64,000 bases of DNA from Spizellomyces punctatus DAOM BR117 (lineage: Eukaryota): the NCBI GenBank assembly GCA_000182565.2, contig KQ257458.1; one strand, written 5' to 3'. Of the stretch, positions 1 to 43,980 are shown one piece after another. The position numbers and the translations under genes are program-made. The first letter of the stretch is position 1. Every line of letters begins with the position of its first letter. The notes beneath the pieces are model-generated. The model saw only the letters and a list, made by a program, of their open reading frames with translations. It was not told where the DNA came from and ran no database searches.

Positions 1-1098
1 GCGACAGGCCGTAAGATTATTCTCAATATATTGACTTTTGATATCTGCTTCAATCGCCTGTTCTGAGTTGCGATGCTTGTGTCTGCCATATTTTGCCGCA
101 TCTGGATGCTTCAGGCAAACTGACATGGAGGTCCCATCCGTCGTTATTGATCCGTCAAATGCCATTCCACTACGCGTCGTGAACGCCTTACTGCCAAGAT
201 TGCAAACACGCAACCACAAGTCCATTTTGTCAACAGAGTCGTATTCTCGCCATGAGACTTTTAGCACATGTTGATACAGAATCATAGTATCAATGCGAAC
301 ATGGGATTGGATAAACGATCTTCGCAATGGGATGGCATTAAACAAGGGCAGGCCACATCGTTCGAATAAACGGGATAATGCACAGTGAGACGGAAAAAAT
401 GACAGCGGATCGCATGCTACAAGATATGCGAGTTTCCCTTCTTTTCCTATGACTCGATCAAGCAAAATATTCCAAATGTCTTCTAATAATGCACTTTCCA
501 AATTGCTCAGGTCTAGATCATCGGTTTGTGGAATGTCGTCTAATAAGAACAATTGTTTCAGATATCGCAATCTGGCGAAAAATGACATTCTCTCCGCTCC
601 CAATAGTCTTTTCTGCTGGTTCTTGACGTCTAATCGATAATTGATGAATCTAACTAGCATTTTGACAAAATGCTCTTGGACATTGACTTTAATGTTTGTT
701 ATGACACTGGTGGTGAGGTAGTTGATGGACTGTTGATCATATTTCAGGTTGGGCCGAGTAAAACCCACAACATTGCAGTACCGATCAATATGGGGCACGA
801 GGATATCACGGCAATCTTTTTTCGCCATGTTGCCTGGCTGCCAAGCTGCACCTTTATTCAGCAGGTAAAGCGTCGCCTCCATGACAGTTTCATTGATAAT
901 CGGAAAGTGTGGGCTGGATAGGATGTAGAACTTGAGTGCATGAGTAGCGTGGGCTGCTAGTTCATGGACGATTTGGATATAATTTTGAATGCGATCTCAG
1001 TAGGTATCATTTGCAGCAAAAGCCTTTTCAAAAGATGTCTTGTGACATGAATGGAGGATAGCAGGTTGGTCGACTTTCTGCTTCTTCTTCGGAGGCAT
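1..1098 (-). pseudogene. Fz1: Fanzor1 (eukaryotic TnpB-derived RNA-guided nuclease), copy A; N-terminal ~365 codons, runs off the window edge
   Basis: ATG at 1098 reads MPPKKKQKVDQPAILHSCHKTSFEKAF, then HALKFYILS, QQSINYLT, NIKVNVQEHF, AIPLRRSFIQSHVRIDT, GSITTDG, closely resembling SpuFz1 as recalled. One in-frame TGA at 997-999 (CGA in copy B); otherwise open to base 1. Aligns to copy B at offset 4960. Confidence 0.93.
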
Positions 1099-1483
1099 CG
1101 TTGAAGATGAAGACTGTGGGAAAATGGGCAACTCATCTTTTAAATACTGGATAGATCTATTATTCATTAGACTAGATATGGGTTTATAGATATTGGACAA
1201 CATTTCATTGGTCGCTTGGGATGAAAATTTTCGATAGTATGTCATGTGACCATGGGTTATTTATTGTGGATCACTGAAGGGGGTCAGGGGTATTCATTAG
1301 GTAGCTTTCAGTGGAGGCATTTACCAGTGTCTTTTGGGCAAGATTTGAGGATTTTGGATAGTCATTGTTTACATTCCATGCCTGTACCAGCGTCGATCCT
1401 GGCATCCCATGTCTGAATCTTCAGGCCCGACGCGTAGCTAAGCCACCCGCCTCACCCAAACCATCGAGCGCCGTCATCACATT
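1..1483. repeat. Direct repeat of 4961-6443 (Fanzor copy A vs copy B)
   Basis: Base-by-base alignment at offset 4960; 14 differences in the first 300 bp. Homology ends abruptly at 1483/6443. Confidence 0.98.
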
Positions 1484-4079: not shown

Positions 4080-4145
4080 TCAAAGTTACCGAGCCAGCTT
4101 GCCTATACGACAGGGAATGAACCAGCGTAAACTGGTTCAGAAAAG
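4080..4145 (-). ncRNA. Putative omegaRNA scaffold downstream of Fanzor copy B (3' boundary uncertain)
   Basis: About 25 nt after the stop: CTTTTCTGAACCAG-TTTACG-CTGGTTCA-TTCCCTG-TCGTATAGGCAAGCTGGCTCGG, with a perfect 8-bp hairpin. 4111-4168 is conserved with 43043-43101 and resembles the 5' half of the SpuFz1 omegaRNA as recalled. Confidence 0.75.
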
Positions 4146-6672
4146 TTAACTAACTGCTACTAGACAATCTAAGCTACCAAAGGGACATGTCTACTGAAAA
4201 TGGCTGGTCTAACACCATGATCTAAATACGATTTCACGATTGTTACCATATTAGACGTCCTTTATTTGTCTCGATTCCAGTAACGGTAAGTGCATCCTTG
4301 CTCTATGCAGTTTGGGTTGGTACAACCTAGCAAGCCATGCACTTTTTCACTACATCCTTTCTGATGCTGCCAGGGTCTCGAGTGTGGTCGTATCTTGAAT
4401 CCCTTTTGCCAATGATCGCCTGATAAGCATCTTGGACATATTGATGAGGTTCGATATTCATCTAATAGGAAGCAATCGATGCGATTGCATTTGAAACAAT
4501 TCTGCCATCCAGTCGTTTTCGATGATATCTGGTATTTTTGGGTATGCCCACCATCGCTCCAATCACCCATTACTACAGCAAAACTACTACCAAAGCATTT
4601 CCTCATATTAGATATCAGCTTTGCTTCAGTTCTTTGGGTGTTCATGTAGGTATGCCATCTCCATCTAGTATGGGTGGGATGTGAATAAAAGTCCTTCAAG
4701 GGTGCATCATTGTCATGGCGCCATGACAGGTAATGAATGTAGCTATCGAGATTCATTGTTTTATGTGAAGGCACTGCAGACTCGATGACATCAATGCCAT
4801 TCTCATGCTTCATTGCTTCATGGGATTTGTTGAACCTCCTGCTTCCAATCTCTTTGGTTCTTTGCATGGAAGTATAGTGAAACATACACCCATTTTGAAG
4901 ATCCTGACAGTATAGCATATCATGCTTATTGGGATCAATGGTGACAACATTGGATGCACTGCGACAGGCCGTAAGATTATTCTCGATATATTGACTTTTG
5001 ATATCTGCTTCAATTGCCTGTTCTGAGTTGTGATGCTTGTGTCTGCCATATTTTGCTGCATCTGGATGCTTCAGGCAAACTGACATGGAGGTCCCATCCA
5101 TTGTTATTGATCCATCAAATGCCATTCCACTACGTGTCATGAACACCTTACTGCCAAGATTGCAAACACGCAACCACAAGTCCATTTTGTCAACAGCGTC
5201 ATATTCTCGCTGTGAGACTTTTAGCACATGTTGATACAGAATCATAGTATCAATGCGAACATGGGATTGGATAAACGATCTTTGCAATGGGATGGCATTA
5301 AACAAGGGCAGGCCGCATCATTCGAATAAACGGGATAATGCACAGTGAGACAGAAAAAATGACAGCGGATCACATGCTACAAGATATGTGAGTGTCCCTT
5401 CTTTTCCTATTACTCGATCGAGCAAAATATTCCAAATGTCTTCTAATAATGCACTTTCCAAATCACTCAGGTCTAGATCATCGGTTTGTGGAATGTCGTC
5501 TAATAAGAACAATTGTTTCAGATATCACAATCTGGCAAAAAATGATGTTCTCTCTGCTCCCAATAGTCTTTTCTGCTGGTTCTTGACATCTAATCAATAA
5601 TTGATGAATCTAACTAGCATTTTGACAAAATGCTCTTGGACATTGACTTTAATGTTTGTTATGACACTGGTGGTGAGGTAGTTGATGGACTGTTGATCGT
5701 ATTTCAGGTTGGGCCGAGTAAAACCCACAACATCACAGTACTGATCAATATGGGGCATGAGGATATCATGGCAATCTTTTTTTGCCATGTTGCCTGGCTG
5801 CCAAGCTGCACCTTTATTCAGCAGGTAAAGCATTGCCTCCACAACAGTTTCATTGATAATCAGAAAGTGTGGGCTGGATAGGATGTAGAACTTGAGTGCA
5901 TGAGTAGCATGGGCTGCTAGTTCATGGACGATTCAGATATAATTTTGAACGCGATCTCGGTAGGTATCATTTGCAGCAAAAGCCTTTTCAAAAGATGTCT
6001 TGTGACATGAATGGAGGATAGCAGGTTGGTTGACTTTCTGCTTCTTCTTTGGAGGCATCGTTGAAGATGAAGACTGTGGGAAAATGGGCAACTCATCTTT
6101 TAAATACTGGATAGATCTATTATTCATTAGACTAGATATGGGTTTATAGATATTGGACAACATTTCATTGGTCACTTGGGATGAAAATTTTTGATAGTAT
6201 GTCATGTGACCATGGGTTATTTATTGTGGTCACCGAAGGGGGTCAGGGGTATTCATTAGGTAGCTTTCAGTGGAGGCATTTACCAGTGTCTTTTGGGCGA
6301 GATTTGAGGATTTTGGATAGTCATTGTTTACATTCCATGCCTGTACCAGCGTCGAATCCTGGCATCCCATGTCTGAATCTTCAGGCCCGACGCGTAGCTA
6401 AGCCACCCGCCTCACCCAAACCATCGAGCGCCATCATCACATTCATAGCATTCTTCAGGCTTGAAGCGCTTCATCATATTGGCGCTTTTTCATATGTCGT
6501 TGATATGCAAAGAGGAGTTCATGTATACATTGCCATGCTGGGCATAGCGACGTACAGCTTTGCAAACTGGTAAACCCTGCTGAACTGGCATAGCTTACGC
6601 TCATATCCGATGGCAATCAAACCTTCCTCCGCGGCAACCCCAGTTCATTCCCTGTTGTATAGGCTTGCCTAT
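4097..6672 (-). mobile_element. Fanzor-carrying non-autonomous DNA element with ~22-bp terminal inverted repeats
   Basis: 4101-4122 (GCCTATACGACAGGGAATGAAC) is the reverse complement of 6643-6664 (GTTCATTCCCTGTTGTATAGGC) at 21/22. No transposase ORF inside. Exact ends and TSD unclear. Confidence 0.65.
4169..6058 (-). pseudogene. Fz1: Fanzor1 nuclease, copy B; full length (~629 codons), five premature stops, no frameshift
   Basis: ORF-track pieces 5933-6205, 5594-5842, 5318-5512 and 4262-5305 share one frame. N-terminal NLS-like PPKKKQK; RuvC-I TIDPN; VMGDWS; RuvC-II LLDEYRTSSICPRC; zinc finger CPRC...CTNPNC; RuvC-III YWNRD. The frame continues past the TAA at 4262 as RTSNMVTIVKSYLDHGVRPAIFSRHVPLVA to TAG at 4169. 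Stops at 5933, 5594, 5525 and 5318 are TGA; the one at 4262 is TAA. Confidence 0.95.
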
Positions 6673-41277: not shown

Positions 41278-42868
41278 TTACAAGACCTTATCAATGACGC
41301 GAACCCCATTCCCACTAATAAAACTTCTAGAGGACGACGGGTGCACCCCAACAGCGGCATGGGTATACATGGATAAGCTTGTATCCGCAAAAACGACCTT
41401 CGATTTAAACTGTGTATGAATGGATGTCAATCAAGGGCAATGAAAGATTGGTAGAGTAGAGGTGACAAGACCTTTTTTCCATAGTACCGATCTTGAGCTG
41501 TGTTGTTCACAACTTTCATAACCTGTACCTCATGATTAGGAACACGCAGGGGCATATCTCCCAACCGACGAGAAACGTTACCGCAAAGGGTGTGCCTTGC
41601 TCCTTATTCAATAAAGCCCTGCCGGCCTTCACGACATCCATAATACCGGACACGTACACGGCACCCGACTCAGGATCGACAGAAATCTGCTCACCCCATA
41701 TGGGCTATATGATACATGAGGATTTTTTGTCACAATAGTGGTCTCCTGGATGGACGGACGTACCACTTCGATTGTTTCGAGCAGCCGTAACCGATTGTTC
41801 TGTTTACGTTCGTAAATAAGGACATGGGGACCGGATGGGTCTACTACGTATATGCTTGTGGAAGAGGCCGCAATATCTGTTGGATAGGTGAGTCCTTCTG
41901 TTGCCACTCTGGAAGCATACGTGAATAAGTCGACGATGCATAAATAAACATCAACTAGAAGAAACCGACCTCGTCGTACCATCTTCACCCCGAAACACCA
42001 CACGGCCATTTGTTCCAATTAGTGCCTGATCTGTCACATAAAAGCTTTTTTCACCAACAGCGGCGATTCCCCCAGGCCGCGTAAGACCGATCTCGTCCCA
42101 TGGAATGGTTTCCAAATGAACGAATTGGGTGGTAGTCAAGGTGTGAGAGAAGATTTCGATTGTACGCTGACTAGTGAGGGTCATGAGGATGAGGGAGGAG
42201 GAGTTGGTTGGGTGAGGTGTTACGCTTATGGAGAAGGGGGGAGGGGAGTGCAATTTCGTGTTTTGAAGGGTGGGTTTGGATGTCTACTAGGTAAAATCAG
42301 TTGATGGTTGCGCAGATCACCGCATAAAGGAGAACGCACCTTCATATCAAGCACAACAATATTCGCATCCTTATTCCCAGCAGACTGTTCGTGAACTCTA
42401 GAGAACGGTGGGAACCATTTGTAGCTCCCTGGGAGGCTTTCACTACAGGCTACTTCAATGAGCACCAAACTACATTCGAAAATTGACCGTAGTTTAGCTG
42501 CGCTCAGACATACCCAAGAAAACCTGCCCAGTAGGTTGGTAAATTGCTGCTGCTCCACACCCTTTCAGAACAGGATCTTGAATACCCGTCACACCAGGAT
42601 AGTTAGTCAGTGCGGTGATTGACCAAGGCCCACGAGTTTACAAGGCAGCAGCATACCATCCAACACCTTCCAACCGTCCGTTCCAACGTCTCCGAGGTTG
42701 TTTCCAACCTGGTAAATGCTGTACAATGCTCTGCCTGTATCAGAGTTTTGGACTGTCAACCTTGGCGCATTGTGTTCACTTTGTAGATCCCATACCAGTT
42801 GGGTACAAGTACGCGCTCAAAACGCCCATAATCACTCCGAGAACCGTGACAACCGCTAAGGACACCAT
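41278..42868 (-). CDS. Paraoxonase/arylesterase-like beta-propeller protein, multi-exon
   Basis: Signal anchor MVSLAVVTVLGVIMGVLSAYLY; IEIFSH...HLETI; PGGIAAVGEKSFYVTD; GLTYPTDIA...IYVVD; ISVDPESGAVYVSG; TAA at 41278. Confidence 0.7.
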
Positions 42869-42984
42869 TGTGGGCCGGGTTTTTGGGTCTGAGATGAGGA
42901 AGATGTGTTCAAAGATAGGAGGACAGCTGTGCTGACCTGCGGACAGATCATTCCGCACGTGATCAGTGTCATTCAGGGAAGCCC

Positions 42985-43077
42985 ATATGTCCCCCTTTTT
43001 ATTTAGTGTAGAGGTGACAGAAAATGGCACTAGCTACTACACCAGGGAATAAACCAGCGACAACTGGTTCGGAAAAG
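42985..43077 (-). ncRNA. omegaRNA: ~74-nt scaffold (43077-43004) plus flank-derived guide AAUAAAAAGGGGGACAUAU
   Basis: CTTTTCCGAACCAG-TTGTCG-CTGGTTT-ATTCCCTG-GTGTAG...CTACAC-TA: two stems, ending in CACTA at the element end, the architecture of the SpuFz1 omegaRNA as recalled. Confidence 0.8.
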
Positions 43078-43742
43078 CCAACTAAGCTACTACTAGGCAA
43101 TTATACACGCAATACGTAACGGTTGGTTCTAACCGGATAATTGCCCACCACCACACACGGTCCTTACTAGGCCTTGATCCAGAACTCTTGATGGCATTGA
43201 AGCCAGACTCTTGCATCCAGGAGCGAATCGACTGGGCAGCATCACAAGCTGGAGGATGTTCAGTGACAAGGCTTGGAGACTAAAAACTGCATGTCAGAAG
43301 ATGACCCAATGACAAGAAATAAAATGATGCAATCAGTACATACCAACCAAGCTCAACTAATGTGGCAGTATAATAGCAGCTTTGTTGGTTCCGAGTGATT
43401 GTTGCTGGTTCCAGTTGGTTGTAGTCATCGGGAGGGTGAGGTCCTCGGCACCACCACATCTGCATTCTCATGGTTGACCGAGTCGCGATGAGGGTTGCGA
43501 TGTGGGTTGTGATGATTGCACAGATGGTTTGAGAGTCGAGGATGGGTAAAGAGGAAAGAGGGAGCAGGTCTCTTTTATAGACCTTTGGCATGCGCCTCAC
43601 CGCAGTTTAAAAAAAAAAAAACATTACATTAGCATGCCACACCGTTTTGAGCGATAGAGGGGGTGCTGATTATGCGATATGATTAACTGGATTATCCGGA
43701 TAATAATGGGTCTTAGTGCCATTTTCAATCACCTCCACACTA
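43004..43742 (-). mobile_element. Fanzor-less 'ghost' element (MITE-like) with 29-bp TIRs and a TA target duplication
   Basis: 43004-43032 TAGTGTAGAGGTGACAGAAAATGGCACTA vs reverse complement of 43714-43742 TAGTGTGGAGGTGATTGAAAATGGCACTA (26/29); TA at both termini; shares ~58 nt with the 3' flank of Fanzor copy B. Confidence 0.88.
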
Positions 43743-43980
43743 TATTCTGCCCATGTTCATACCCACCCCAAATTATTCTATTCTTACGCCGATAAAATAT
43801 TCAAAAGACAGGTCCCATTTGTCCCTCATCCACCATACCGTCAATTTCCCGGCGATCCCGCGCCAGGCACGATGCATACGCCAATTGCTTCAAACTTAGT
43901 GGCCCATCATCTTGCTTATCTAGCACGGACCGGAAGACTTTGACATACCGATCAACTGTGCGTTCCAGAAACTGCTCTAC

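What the first reader, a model, noticed from the sequence alone, without database searches (positions are those of the whole stretch)
42984..43750. The ghost appears to have inserted into a host TATA box, so its guide targets the arylesterase promoter
Seen: removing the element and one TA rejoins the minus strand as GCAGAATATAAATAAAAAGGGGG, a canonical TATAAATA about 135 bp upstream of the arylesterase ATG (42868). The 4-mer before the left end is TATA, whereas I recall CATA as the SpuFz1 TAM. Inference: the empty allele is TAM (TATA) plus a perfect guide match, so Fanzor would cut, or if catalytically dead bind, the intact promoter. That could drive homing of the insertion or RNA-guided control of a host gene, and it suggests a TATA or YATA target preference.
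Basis: inference. Interest (0 to 1): 0.7.

Follow-up and report, generated by a model that had tools for sequence, protein, structure and literature searches.

The report
Known Fanzor ghost element beside promoter
This is an ordinary copy of an already described gene-less "ghost" guide-RNA transposon of a soil fungus, lying in the short spacer between two genes; hitting a TATA-like motif there is about what chance would give.

Summary
The sequence facts hold. A 735-bp element (43006-43740) has 27-nt inverted repeats and a TA on each side. Removing it plus one TA recreates TATAAATA 134-135 nt upstream of the ATG at 42870-42868. The 4-mer before its 5' end is TATA, not CATA.

The element is a "ghost Spu-1" element of Spizellomyces punctatus DAOM BR117, the genome in which this class was defined (Saito 2023).

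That its guide matches the un-inserted site is true by construction for every copy.

The TATA-box reading is plausible: mRNA contigs of the downstream gene start at or upstream of 42948. It is not special, because 33 of 6,000 oriented TA sites in the window have the same context, so about one such hit is expected among the roughly 176 family loci. The same motif also holds AATAAA about 65 nt after the stop codon of the upstream gene, whose mRNA now runs into the ghost.

Cutting or homing is not supported. Published SpuFz1 needs every base of CATA, and ghost loci conserve CA.

No empty allele could be examined.

Seen in passing: the ghost family is heavily transcribed on the guide-RNA strand and has a spliced 64-nt intron.

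The scan has noted ghost-like Fanzor elements in giant viruses before, but none on this DNA.

The parts
43741..43744 (-). Four bases in front of the 5' repeat, read on the minus strand as TATA. 43742-43741 is the TA duplication copy. 43744-43743 is TA where the family conserves CA.
   Evidence: family rule from PMC10432273 section 7
43714..43740 (-). 5' (left-end) inverted repeat of the ghost
   Evidence: (I1), 10: 3 of 27 positions differ from the other repeat
43572..43579 (-). Internal TATAAAAG on the minus strand, a candidate promoter box of the ghost's own transcript. The transcription start is not resolved.
   Evidence: sequence; minus-strand RNA downstream of it
43280..43343 (-). 64-nt GT..AG intron inside the ghost, spliced out in RNA
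   Evidence: table 5: joint 43279>43344 in 916 reads with first mate on minus against 5 on plus in X24, and in contigs of X1 and X6; sequence
43004..43080 (-). Guide-RNA (omegaRNA) scaffold, about 75-77 nt, which includes the 3' repeat and the TA. It folds as two hairpins.
   Evidence: -19.8 kcal/mol, z -2.25, 5 of 200 shuffles as good; 43037-43101 is 83 % identical to the stretch downstream of the Fanzor pseudogene stop, 4106-4168; layout
43006..43032 (-). 3' (right-end) inverted repeat
43004..43005 (.). TA duplication copy at the 3' end
   Evidence: TA duplications of SPu-1 in PMC3627910
42989..43003 (-). Flank at the guide position (15 nt after the TA). It is the promoter-proximal DNA of SPPG_05599.
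   Evidence: guide length of 14-15 nt. Transcription from this particular locus is not shown.
42868..42870 (-).
42916..42948 (-). 5' ends of the two spliced mRNA contigs of SPPG_05599 (X1 at 42916, X6 at 42948). The true start is at or upstream of 42948.
   Evidence: table 8, records 1 and 13
43801..43803 (-). Stop codon (TGA) of the upstream tandem gene SPPG_05600, 58 nt before the ghost's TA

Best explanation
This is one of the ghost Spu-1 elements of Spizellomyces punctatus DAOM BR117. These are gene-less, TA-duplicating inverted-repeat transposons whose 3' end encodes the SpuFz1 guide-RNA scaffold.

This copy sits in the roughly 195-bp spacer between two tandem minus-strand genes, SPPG_05600 and SPPG_05599. 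It landed at a TA inside an A/T-rich stretch. In the un-inserted state that stretch reads as both a TATA-type box for the downstream gene and an AATAAA poly(A) signal for the upstream gene.

The guide position is simply the adjacent flank, as in every copy. That the empty site would equal 'TAM position + guide match' is geometry, not a locus-specific function.

The TAM position here is TATA, not the required CATA. This copy is therefore, if anything, a poor substrate for Fanzor-assisted homing.

Both neighbouring genes are still expressed. The upstream mRNA now runs into the ghost. The downstream gene keeps TAAATAAAAA directly next to the ghost's 3' repeat.

Shown: element anatomy, family identity, gene models, mRNA ends, and family-level transcription and splicing. 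Inferred: chance insertion, and no cutting at TATA.
For: - Anatomy: inverted repeats and TA duplication. No Fanzor coding remnant in the ghost (tblastn best E 1.0).
- Homology: a 64-nt stretch at 83 % identity to the region after the stop of a SpuFz1-like pseudogene in the same window. That pseudogene matches PDB 8gkh at E 9e-147.
- Scaffold: folds as two hairpins.
- Organism and genes: named by annotated proteins 100 % identical over the matched exons.
- Published class description: 134 ghost loci, 30-nt repeats, CA upstream of the 5' repeat, a 75-nt scaffold spanning the 3' repeat, a 14-15-nt guide from the flank, and TAM CATA with every base needed (PMC10432273). TA duplications of SPu-1 are described in PMC3627910.
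- Chance level: 33 of 6,000 TA sites share this context.
- Poly(A) reading: AATAAA lies within the rejoined motif, and the SPPG_05600 stop is 58 nt upstream of the TA. The X1 mRNA contig of SPPG_05600 runs to 43714, inside the ghost. X24 depth stays level up to the ghost edge, at 24 then 27.
- Downstream gene: spliced SPPG_05599 mRNA contigs end at 42916 and 42948. Minus-strand depth is about 0.5 in the bin just upstream of the ATG (42870-42936) and under 1 in the three bins below it, so this is not read-through from the ghost.
Against: - No other family copy, empty allele or orthologous spacer could be read, because no genome is held and supplements are closed. The family-wide flank logo and any enrichment near promoters are therefore taken from the paper's text, not measured here.
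- The text does not say which substitution at -4 was tested, so T at -4 may not have been assayed directly.
- S. punctatus has three Fanzor1 families, and a paralogue could read another TAM.
- The mRNA 5' ends come from contigs, which give only a lower bound on the start site.
- The insertion does lie at the one good TATA-type motif within 135 nt of the ATG. A real target preference for such sites is therefore not excluded.
Confidence: 0.8

Rival explanations
1. The ghost's guide RNA programmes a Fanzor, with a relaxed YATA TAM, to cut or bind the un-inserted promoter allele. This would drive homing of the insertion or give RNA-guided control of SPPG_05599.
For: - The geometry is right: the TAM position plus the guide match is recreated in the rejoined site.
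- Ghost scaffolds work with SpuFz1 in human cells (PMC10432273 section 9; PMC13434818).
- The ghost family is heavily transcribed on the guide-RNA strand.
- Saito's discussion raises ghost guides as a repertoire for Fz.
Against: - The TAM is CATA with all four bases required, and C:G at -4 is contacted by two arginines.
- CA is conserved at ghost loci, and this locus has TA.
- In the filled genome the flank is preceded by ACTA, and no other site within 3 mismatches carries CATA in the window.
- No empty allele was seen in the 4 runs laid. None of the 15 listed joints skips the element, and 8 further joints were not shown.
- One locus cannot define a preference.
Confidence: 0.05
2. The split motif is mainly the poly(A) signal and terminator of the upstream gene SPPG_05600, not the TATA box of SPPG_05599. 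The main effect of the ghost is then a new 3' end for SPPG_05600 inside the element.
For: - AATAAA lies within the rejoined motif, about 65 nt after the TGA at 43803-43801.
- The X1 contig of the SPPG_05600 mRNA extends 28 nt into the ghost, to 43714.
- X24 minus-strand depth does not fall before the ghost edge (24 then 27.4). It falls inside the ghost, to 13 at 43607-43673 and 2.9 at 43540-43606.
Against: - Depth inside the ghost mixes reads from other copies.
- Fungal poly(A) signals are loose.
- The SPPG_05599 mRNA starts within 57 nt downstream of the motif, which fits a TATA box equally well.
- The two roles do not exclude each other.
Confidence: 0.3
3. The site was a canonical CATA when the ghost inserted, and the C later mutated to T. 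The locus would then say nothing about target preference.
For: - Transposon copies in this window diverge almost only by transitions: 53 of 56 substitutions between the two Fanzor pseudogene copies.
- 12 of those 53 transitions are outside CpG, in CpA/TpG contexts.
Against: - 41 of the 53 transitions are at CpG, and the C of CATA is not in a CpG.
- The flank is unique DNA, not repeat DNA.
- No outgroup sequence is available.
Confidence: 0.12

Closest known systems
Ghost Spu-1 elements and ghost omegaRNAs of Spizellomyces punctatus (Saito et al. 2023, Nature 620:660, PMC10432273; ghost scaffolds re-used in PMC13434818)
   Same: - Same genome.
- Inverted repeats of about 30 nt.
- No Fanzor ORF.
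- Guide-RNA scaffold spanning the 3' repeat.
- Guide taken from the flank.
   Different: - TA instead of the conserved CA in front of the 5' repeat.
- 735 bp between the duplications, against the '~550 nt + 2 x 30 nt' given in the text.
- The spliced intron and the internal TATA box seen here are not mentioned in that paper's main text (word search).
SPu-1 Fanzor1 transposon (Bao and Jurka 2013, Mob DNA 4:12, PMC3627910)
   Same: Terminal inverted repeats, putative TA target-site duplication, same host.
   Different: SPu-1 is about 2.1 kb and encodes the 633-aa Fanzor. This element encodes none.
[quoted passage not shown]
   Same: The guide equals the flank beyond the right end, the TAM lies before the left end, and the empty site is the only perfect target.
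   Different: - Here the TAM overlaps a TA duplication of a cut-and-paste-type element.
- No transposase is known for Spu-1.
- Homing has not been shown for any Fanzor.
- This copy lacks the canonical TAM.
Tc1/mariner-type MITEs inserted at TA in promoters and UTRs of eukaryotic genes (general knowledge, recalled)
   Same: Short gene-less inverted-repeat element with a TA duplication, in an A/T-rich intergenic spacer next to a gene start.
   Different: It carries a functional-type guide-RNA scaffold and is transcribed and spliced.

Membership tests
Ghost Spu-1 element | Two conserved inverted repeats of about 30 nt | tested here: met
   43006-43032 and 43714-43740 differ at 3 of 27 positions, with 0 matches expected by chance
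Ghost Spu-1 element | TA target-site duplication (SPu-1 family) | tested here: met
   TA at 43004-5 and 43741-2; rule from PMC3627910
Ghost Spu-1 element | No Fanzor ORF between the repeats | tested here: met
   tblastn of the window's Fanzor pseudogene, read through with X at its stops, against the ghost gave a best E of 1.0
Ghost Spu-1 element | The ~75-nt 3' region resembles the stretch between the Fanzor stop codon and the 3' repeat | tested here: inconclusive
   64 nt at 83 % identity to 4106-4168, downstream of the stop of a diverged SpuFz1-like pseudogene. The similarity ends before the ghost's terminal repeat, and no canonical Spu-1 Fz locus was available.
Ghost Spu-1 element | Conserved CA in front of the 5' repeat (TAM CATA together with the TA) | tested here: not met
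   TA at 43744-43743, giving TATA
Ghost Spu-1 element | Member of a multi-copy family with a conserved interior | tested here: inconclusive
   There is only one copy in the window. RNA depth up to 29,276, with mixed letters at many positions, shows many near-identical copies in the organism. No copy could be aligned.
Ghost Spu-1 element | Guide RNA expressed with a 14-15-nt guide from the flank | tested here: inconclusive
   Family-level minus-strand RNA is abundant over the scaffold. The depth of 27 in the flank bin 42937-43003 can be explained by reads of other copies that match 1-2 flank bases by chance.
Core-promoter TATA box of SPPG_05599 | TATA-type motif a few tens of nt upstream of the transcription start | tested here: inconclusive
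   mRNA contig ends at 42916 and 42948 put the start no more than 57 nt downstream of the TA. No cap-based start mapping was available. The motif also reads as AATAAA for the upstream gene.
SpuFz1 target (TAM + guide match) | 5'-CATA immediately before the guide match | tested here: not met
   The rejoined site has TATA and the filled site has ACTA.

The most novel reading that the evidence does not exclude
In vivo, a Fanzor of S. punctatus (SpuFz1 or one of the other two families) tolerates T at TAM position -4. The guide RNA of this ghost would then direct it to the un-inserted SPPG_05599 promoter and SPPG_05600 terminator. Either the insertion is copied into empty alleles, or the core promoter is occupied. 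That would be a natural case of an RNA-guided transposon nuclease aimed at a host promoter.
Probability: 0.05. Interest if true: 0.65.

Novelty: already known. Interest (0 to 1): 0.17.

Why it matters

As it stands, the locus is a routine copy of a published element class in the genome where that class was defined, and its non-canonical TAM argues against the proposed activity.

Two modest points remain useful.

- This copy shows how a ghost insertion can take over the 3' end of one gene while leaving the neighbouring promoter working.
- The read data suggest that ghost elements are spliced transcription units. That may bear on how ghost guide RNAs are made.

Tried and rejected
- **Whole genome.** None is held for this window. 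No family census, flank logo or genome-wide search for guide targets was possible.
- **Earlier notes of the scan.** None exist on this DNA by place or by sequence. The word search returned giant-virus ghost-like elements only.
- **Metagenome scan with a degenerate repeat pattern.** 0 hits.
- **Metagenome scan with a degenerate 20-mer of the scaffold.** 15 loci were returned. blastn found only the seed, extended to at most 26 nt, in 6 of them and nothing in the other 9. tblastn found no Fanzor in any of the 15. About that many chance hits would be expected, so this was rejected.
- **Rfam.** No family at E up to 1 in 42800-43950.
- **Pfam on single exons of the two genes.** Nothing at E up to 0.1.
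- **Empty-allele search in public runs.** Four runs were laid. X1 and X6, labelled 'DNA?', carry intron-less contigs and so behave as transcript assemblies. X2 covers only parts of the stretch. No listed joint skips the element (15 listed, 8 not shown). The test could therefore not be made.
- **Locus-specific guide-RNA expression.** The flank-bin depth of 27 in X24 was first read as transcripts running past the 3' repeat. It was then rejected as evidence, because reads from other copies (depth about 11,000) that match 1-2 flank bases by chance would give a similar mean.
- **Coding potential of the 132-aa ORF across the ghost splice** (ORF). Of the 19 variable positions inside the ORF listed, 6 fall on third codon positions by hand count. 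That is as expected at random, so a coding reading was rejected.
- **Ploidy or sexual cycle of the host.** Not found in PMC7213984, so this stays open.

Full report
**What is there**

The stretch 43004-43742 is a short transposon.
- It has a 27-nt inverted repeat at each end, 43006-43032 and 43714-43740. They differ at 3 of 27 positions, and no other match with up to 3 mismatches exists in the window, against 0 expected in 100 shuffles (also pair I1).
- It has a TA on each side.
- On the minus strand the four bases before the 5' repeat are TATA (43744-43741).

**Which organism and genes**

The exon at 41954-42283 is 100 % identical to the annotated protein SPPG_05599 of Spizellomyces punctatus DAOM BR117. 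The N-terminus of that protein is the one encoded at 42870-42868.

A spliced transcript contig in run X1 confirms four GT..AG introns, at 42284-42339, 42450-42513, 42577-42656 and about 42735-42795.

The label 'arylesterase' is weak. After one kinase fragment (8pkr, E 7.6e-05), the best PDB matches are serum paraoxonase/arylesterase 1 at E 0.002-0.007. No Pfam family is above its cut-off.

The gene upstream on the same strand is SPPG_05600. With its intron removed, its frame ends at TGA 43803-43801, which is 58 nt before the ghost's TA. Without the ghost, the spacer from that stop to the next ATG would be about 195 bp.

**What the element is**

The window holds a Fanzor pseudogene at about 4262-6220 on the minus strand. 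It matches the solved SpuFz1 (8gkh) at E 9e-147.

The ghost shares with it only a 64-nt stretch at 83 % identity: 43037-43101 against 4106-4168, just downstream of the pseudogene's stop and in the same orientation.

The ghost has no Fanzor coding remnant (best tblastn E 1.0).

The 77 nt at 43080-43004 fold on the minus strand into two hairpins (-19.8 kcal/mol, z -2.25; 5 of 200 shuffles fold as well). Rfam has no matching family.

This anatomy is that of the 'ghost Spu-1 elements' described for this very genome. I read sections 7 and 9, the discussion and the legends of PMC10432273 through passages. They report:
- 134 loci with 30-nt repeats and no Fz ORF;
- a conserved interior of about 550 nt;
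- CA conserved in front of the 5' repeat;
- a 75-nt guide-RNA scaffold that spans the 3' repeat, followed by 14-15 nt of variable flank as the guide;
- ghost scaffolds that are active with SpuFz1 in human cells.

Bao and Jurka had already reported TA duplications for SPu-1 and three Fanzor1 families in this species (PMC3627910, passages). A 2026 paper catalogues 126 ghost scaffolds (PMC13434818, passages).

The class is therefore already known. This copy departs from it in one tested feature: TA where CA is conserved.

**The guide claim**

The TA is duplicated and the guide starts after the 3' TA. Any such element therefore recreates 'two flank bases + TA + guide match' when it is removed. The statement that the empty allele equals TAM plus a perfect guide match is true for every copy. 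It says nothing particular about this promoter.

In the present filled DNA the guide-matching flank is preceded by ACTA. The 15-mer has no other match within 3 mismatches that is preceded by CATA in the window.

**The cutting claim**

Saito et al. give the TAM as 5'-CATA. They state that mutating any base of it abolished cleavage. In the structure, the C at -4 and its paired G are hydrogen-bonded by R96 and R291.

This locus has T at -4. A 'TATA or YATA preference' cannot rest on one locus against a family-wide CA.

Three caveats apply.
- I could not see which substitution was tested at -4.
- I could not see the flank logo, because supplements and figures are not available.
- The other Fanzor families of this fungus could read another TAM.

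**The TATA-box claim**

Two spliced mRNA contigs of SPPG_05599 end at 42916 (X1) and 42948 (X6), before the repeat. The transcription start is thus at or upstream of 42948, no more than 57 nt from the TA. That fits a TATA box, but contig ends are only a lower bound.

Two points weaken the claim that this is special.

First, 33 of 6,000 oriented TA sites in the window (0.55 %) are the second TA of a TATAWAW motif. With about 176 family loci, roughly one such hit is expected by chance.

Second, the same rejoined motif contains AATAAA about 65 nt after the stop of SPPG_05600.
- The X1 contig of that gene's mRNA runs to 43714, inside the ghost.
- X24 depth on the gene's strand stays at 24-27 up to the ghost edge and falls only inside it.

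The motif may therefore be the upstream gene's poly(A) signal, the downstream gene's TATA box, or both.

In the filled state TAAATAAAAA still abuts the 3' repeat, and SPPG_05599 is expressed (depth 50 in X1). It is not driven by read-through from the ghost: X24 depth is 0.49 in 42870-42936, against thousands inside the ghost.

**Read data on the ghost itself**

X24 is a stranded RNA run. Its strand sense is calibrated by the two host genes, whose reads all have the first mate on the minus strand, and by the GT..AG direction of the ghost intron.

In X24 the ghost is covered on the minus strand at depths of 6,180 to 29,276 between 43004 and 43271. At many positions most reads carry another letter, so these reads come mostly from other family copies (tables 2 and 3).

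A 64-nt intron (43280-43343, GTATGT...TAG) is spliced out in 916 reads against 5 on the other strand. It is also spliced out in contigs of X1 and X6 (table 5).

A TATAAAAG lies at 43579-43572 on the same strand. The start of the ghost transcript is not resolved: coverage begins near 43470 in X24 but reaches about 43600 in X1.

The 132-aa ORF that the splice creates shows no coding signature. Of the 19 variable positions inside it listed, 6 fall on third codon positions by hand count.

Whether this particular copy is transcribed into its flank cannot be told. The depth of 27 in bin 42937-43003 is about what reads from other copies would give by matching one or two flank bases.

Neither 'intron' nor any mention of splicing in the text occurs in the main text of PMC10432273. 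No paper in the library holds Fanzor, ghost and intron together, and none holds Fanzor, ghost and 'TATA box' together.

**What could not be done**

- No genome is held.
- No notes exist on this DNA.
- Two metagenome scans gave nothing, or 15 loci where blastn found no more than the seed 20-mer (extended to at most 26 nt) and tblastn no Fanzor.
- None of the four runs laid offered a DNA view of another strain, so no empty allele was examined.

**Verdict**

The element is an already described ghost Spu-1 copy. The guide-targets-promoter statement is true by construction. The TATA-box hit is plausible but at chance level, and it is confounded with a poly(A) signal. The proposed cutting or homing is contradicted by the published TAM. 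Interest is low.

Noticed in passing
window 43280-43343 and 43004-43600 (minus strand): The ghost family is transcribed at very high level on the guide-RNA strand (X24 depth up to 29,276, all copies pooled). It carries a 64-nt GT..AG intron that is spliced out (916 reads against 5), and a TATAAAAG at 43579-43572. I found no mention of an intron in ghost elements.
   Followed up: partly
window 43714-43803: The mRNA of the upstream gene SPPG_05600 (stop at 43803-43801) runs into the ghost's 5' repeat (X1 contig to 43714). Its 3' end now seems to lie inside the element.
   Followed up: partly
window 4101-6664 (minus strand): A SpuFz1-like Fanzor pseudogene (E 9e-147 to 8gkh over its last 351 codons) with four in-frame TGA stops at 5935, 5596, 5527 and 5320. 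It is bounded by 22-nt inverted repeats, 4101-4122 and 6643-6664 (95 %), that differ from the ghost's repeats. It is probably one of the other Fanzor1 families of this fungus.
   Followed up: partly
window 1-1483 versus 4961-6443: A second copy of the pseudogene's 5' half, cut by the window edge, is 96 % identical. Of 56 substitutions, 53 are transitions and 41 of these are at CpG. Three of copy A's four TGA stops align with arginine in copy B (the fourth with glutamine), and copy B has a stop of its own. CpG observed/expected is 0.54 in the pseudogene element and 0.59 in the ghost, against 0.91 for the window. This pattern fits deamination of methylated CpG in transposons.
   Followed up: partly
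window 43540-43606 (plus strand): A small peak of RNA on the opposite strand of the ghost (X24 first mate on plus, depth 62), next to the A13 run at 43607-43620. Unexplained.
   Followed up: no
window 42989-43050 (minus strand): In the minimum-energy fold of scaffold plus 15-nt flank, the G5 run of the guide pairs with the UUCCCU linker between the two hairpins (-25.0 against -19.8 kcal/mol). The centroid structure does not keep this pairing.
   Followed up: no
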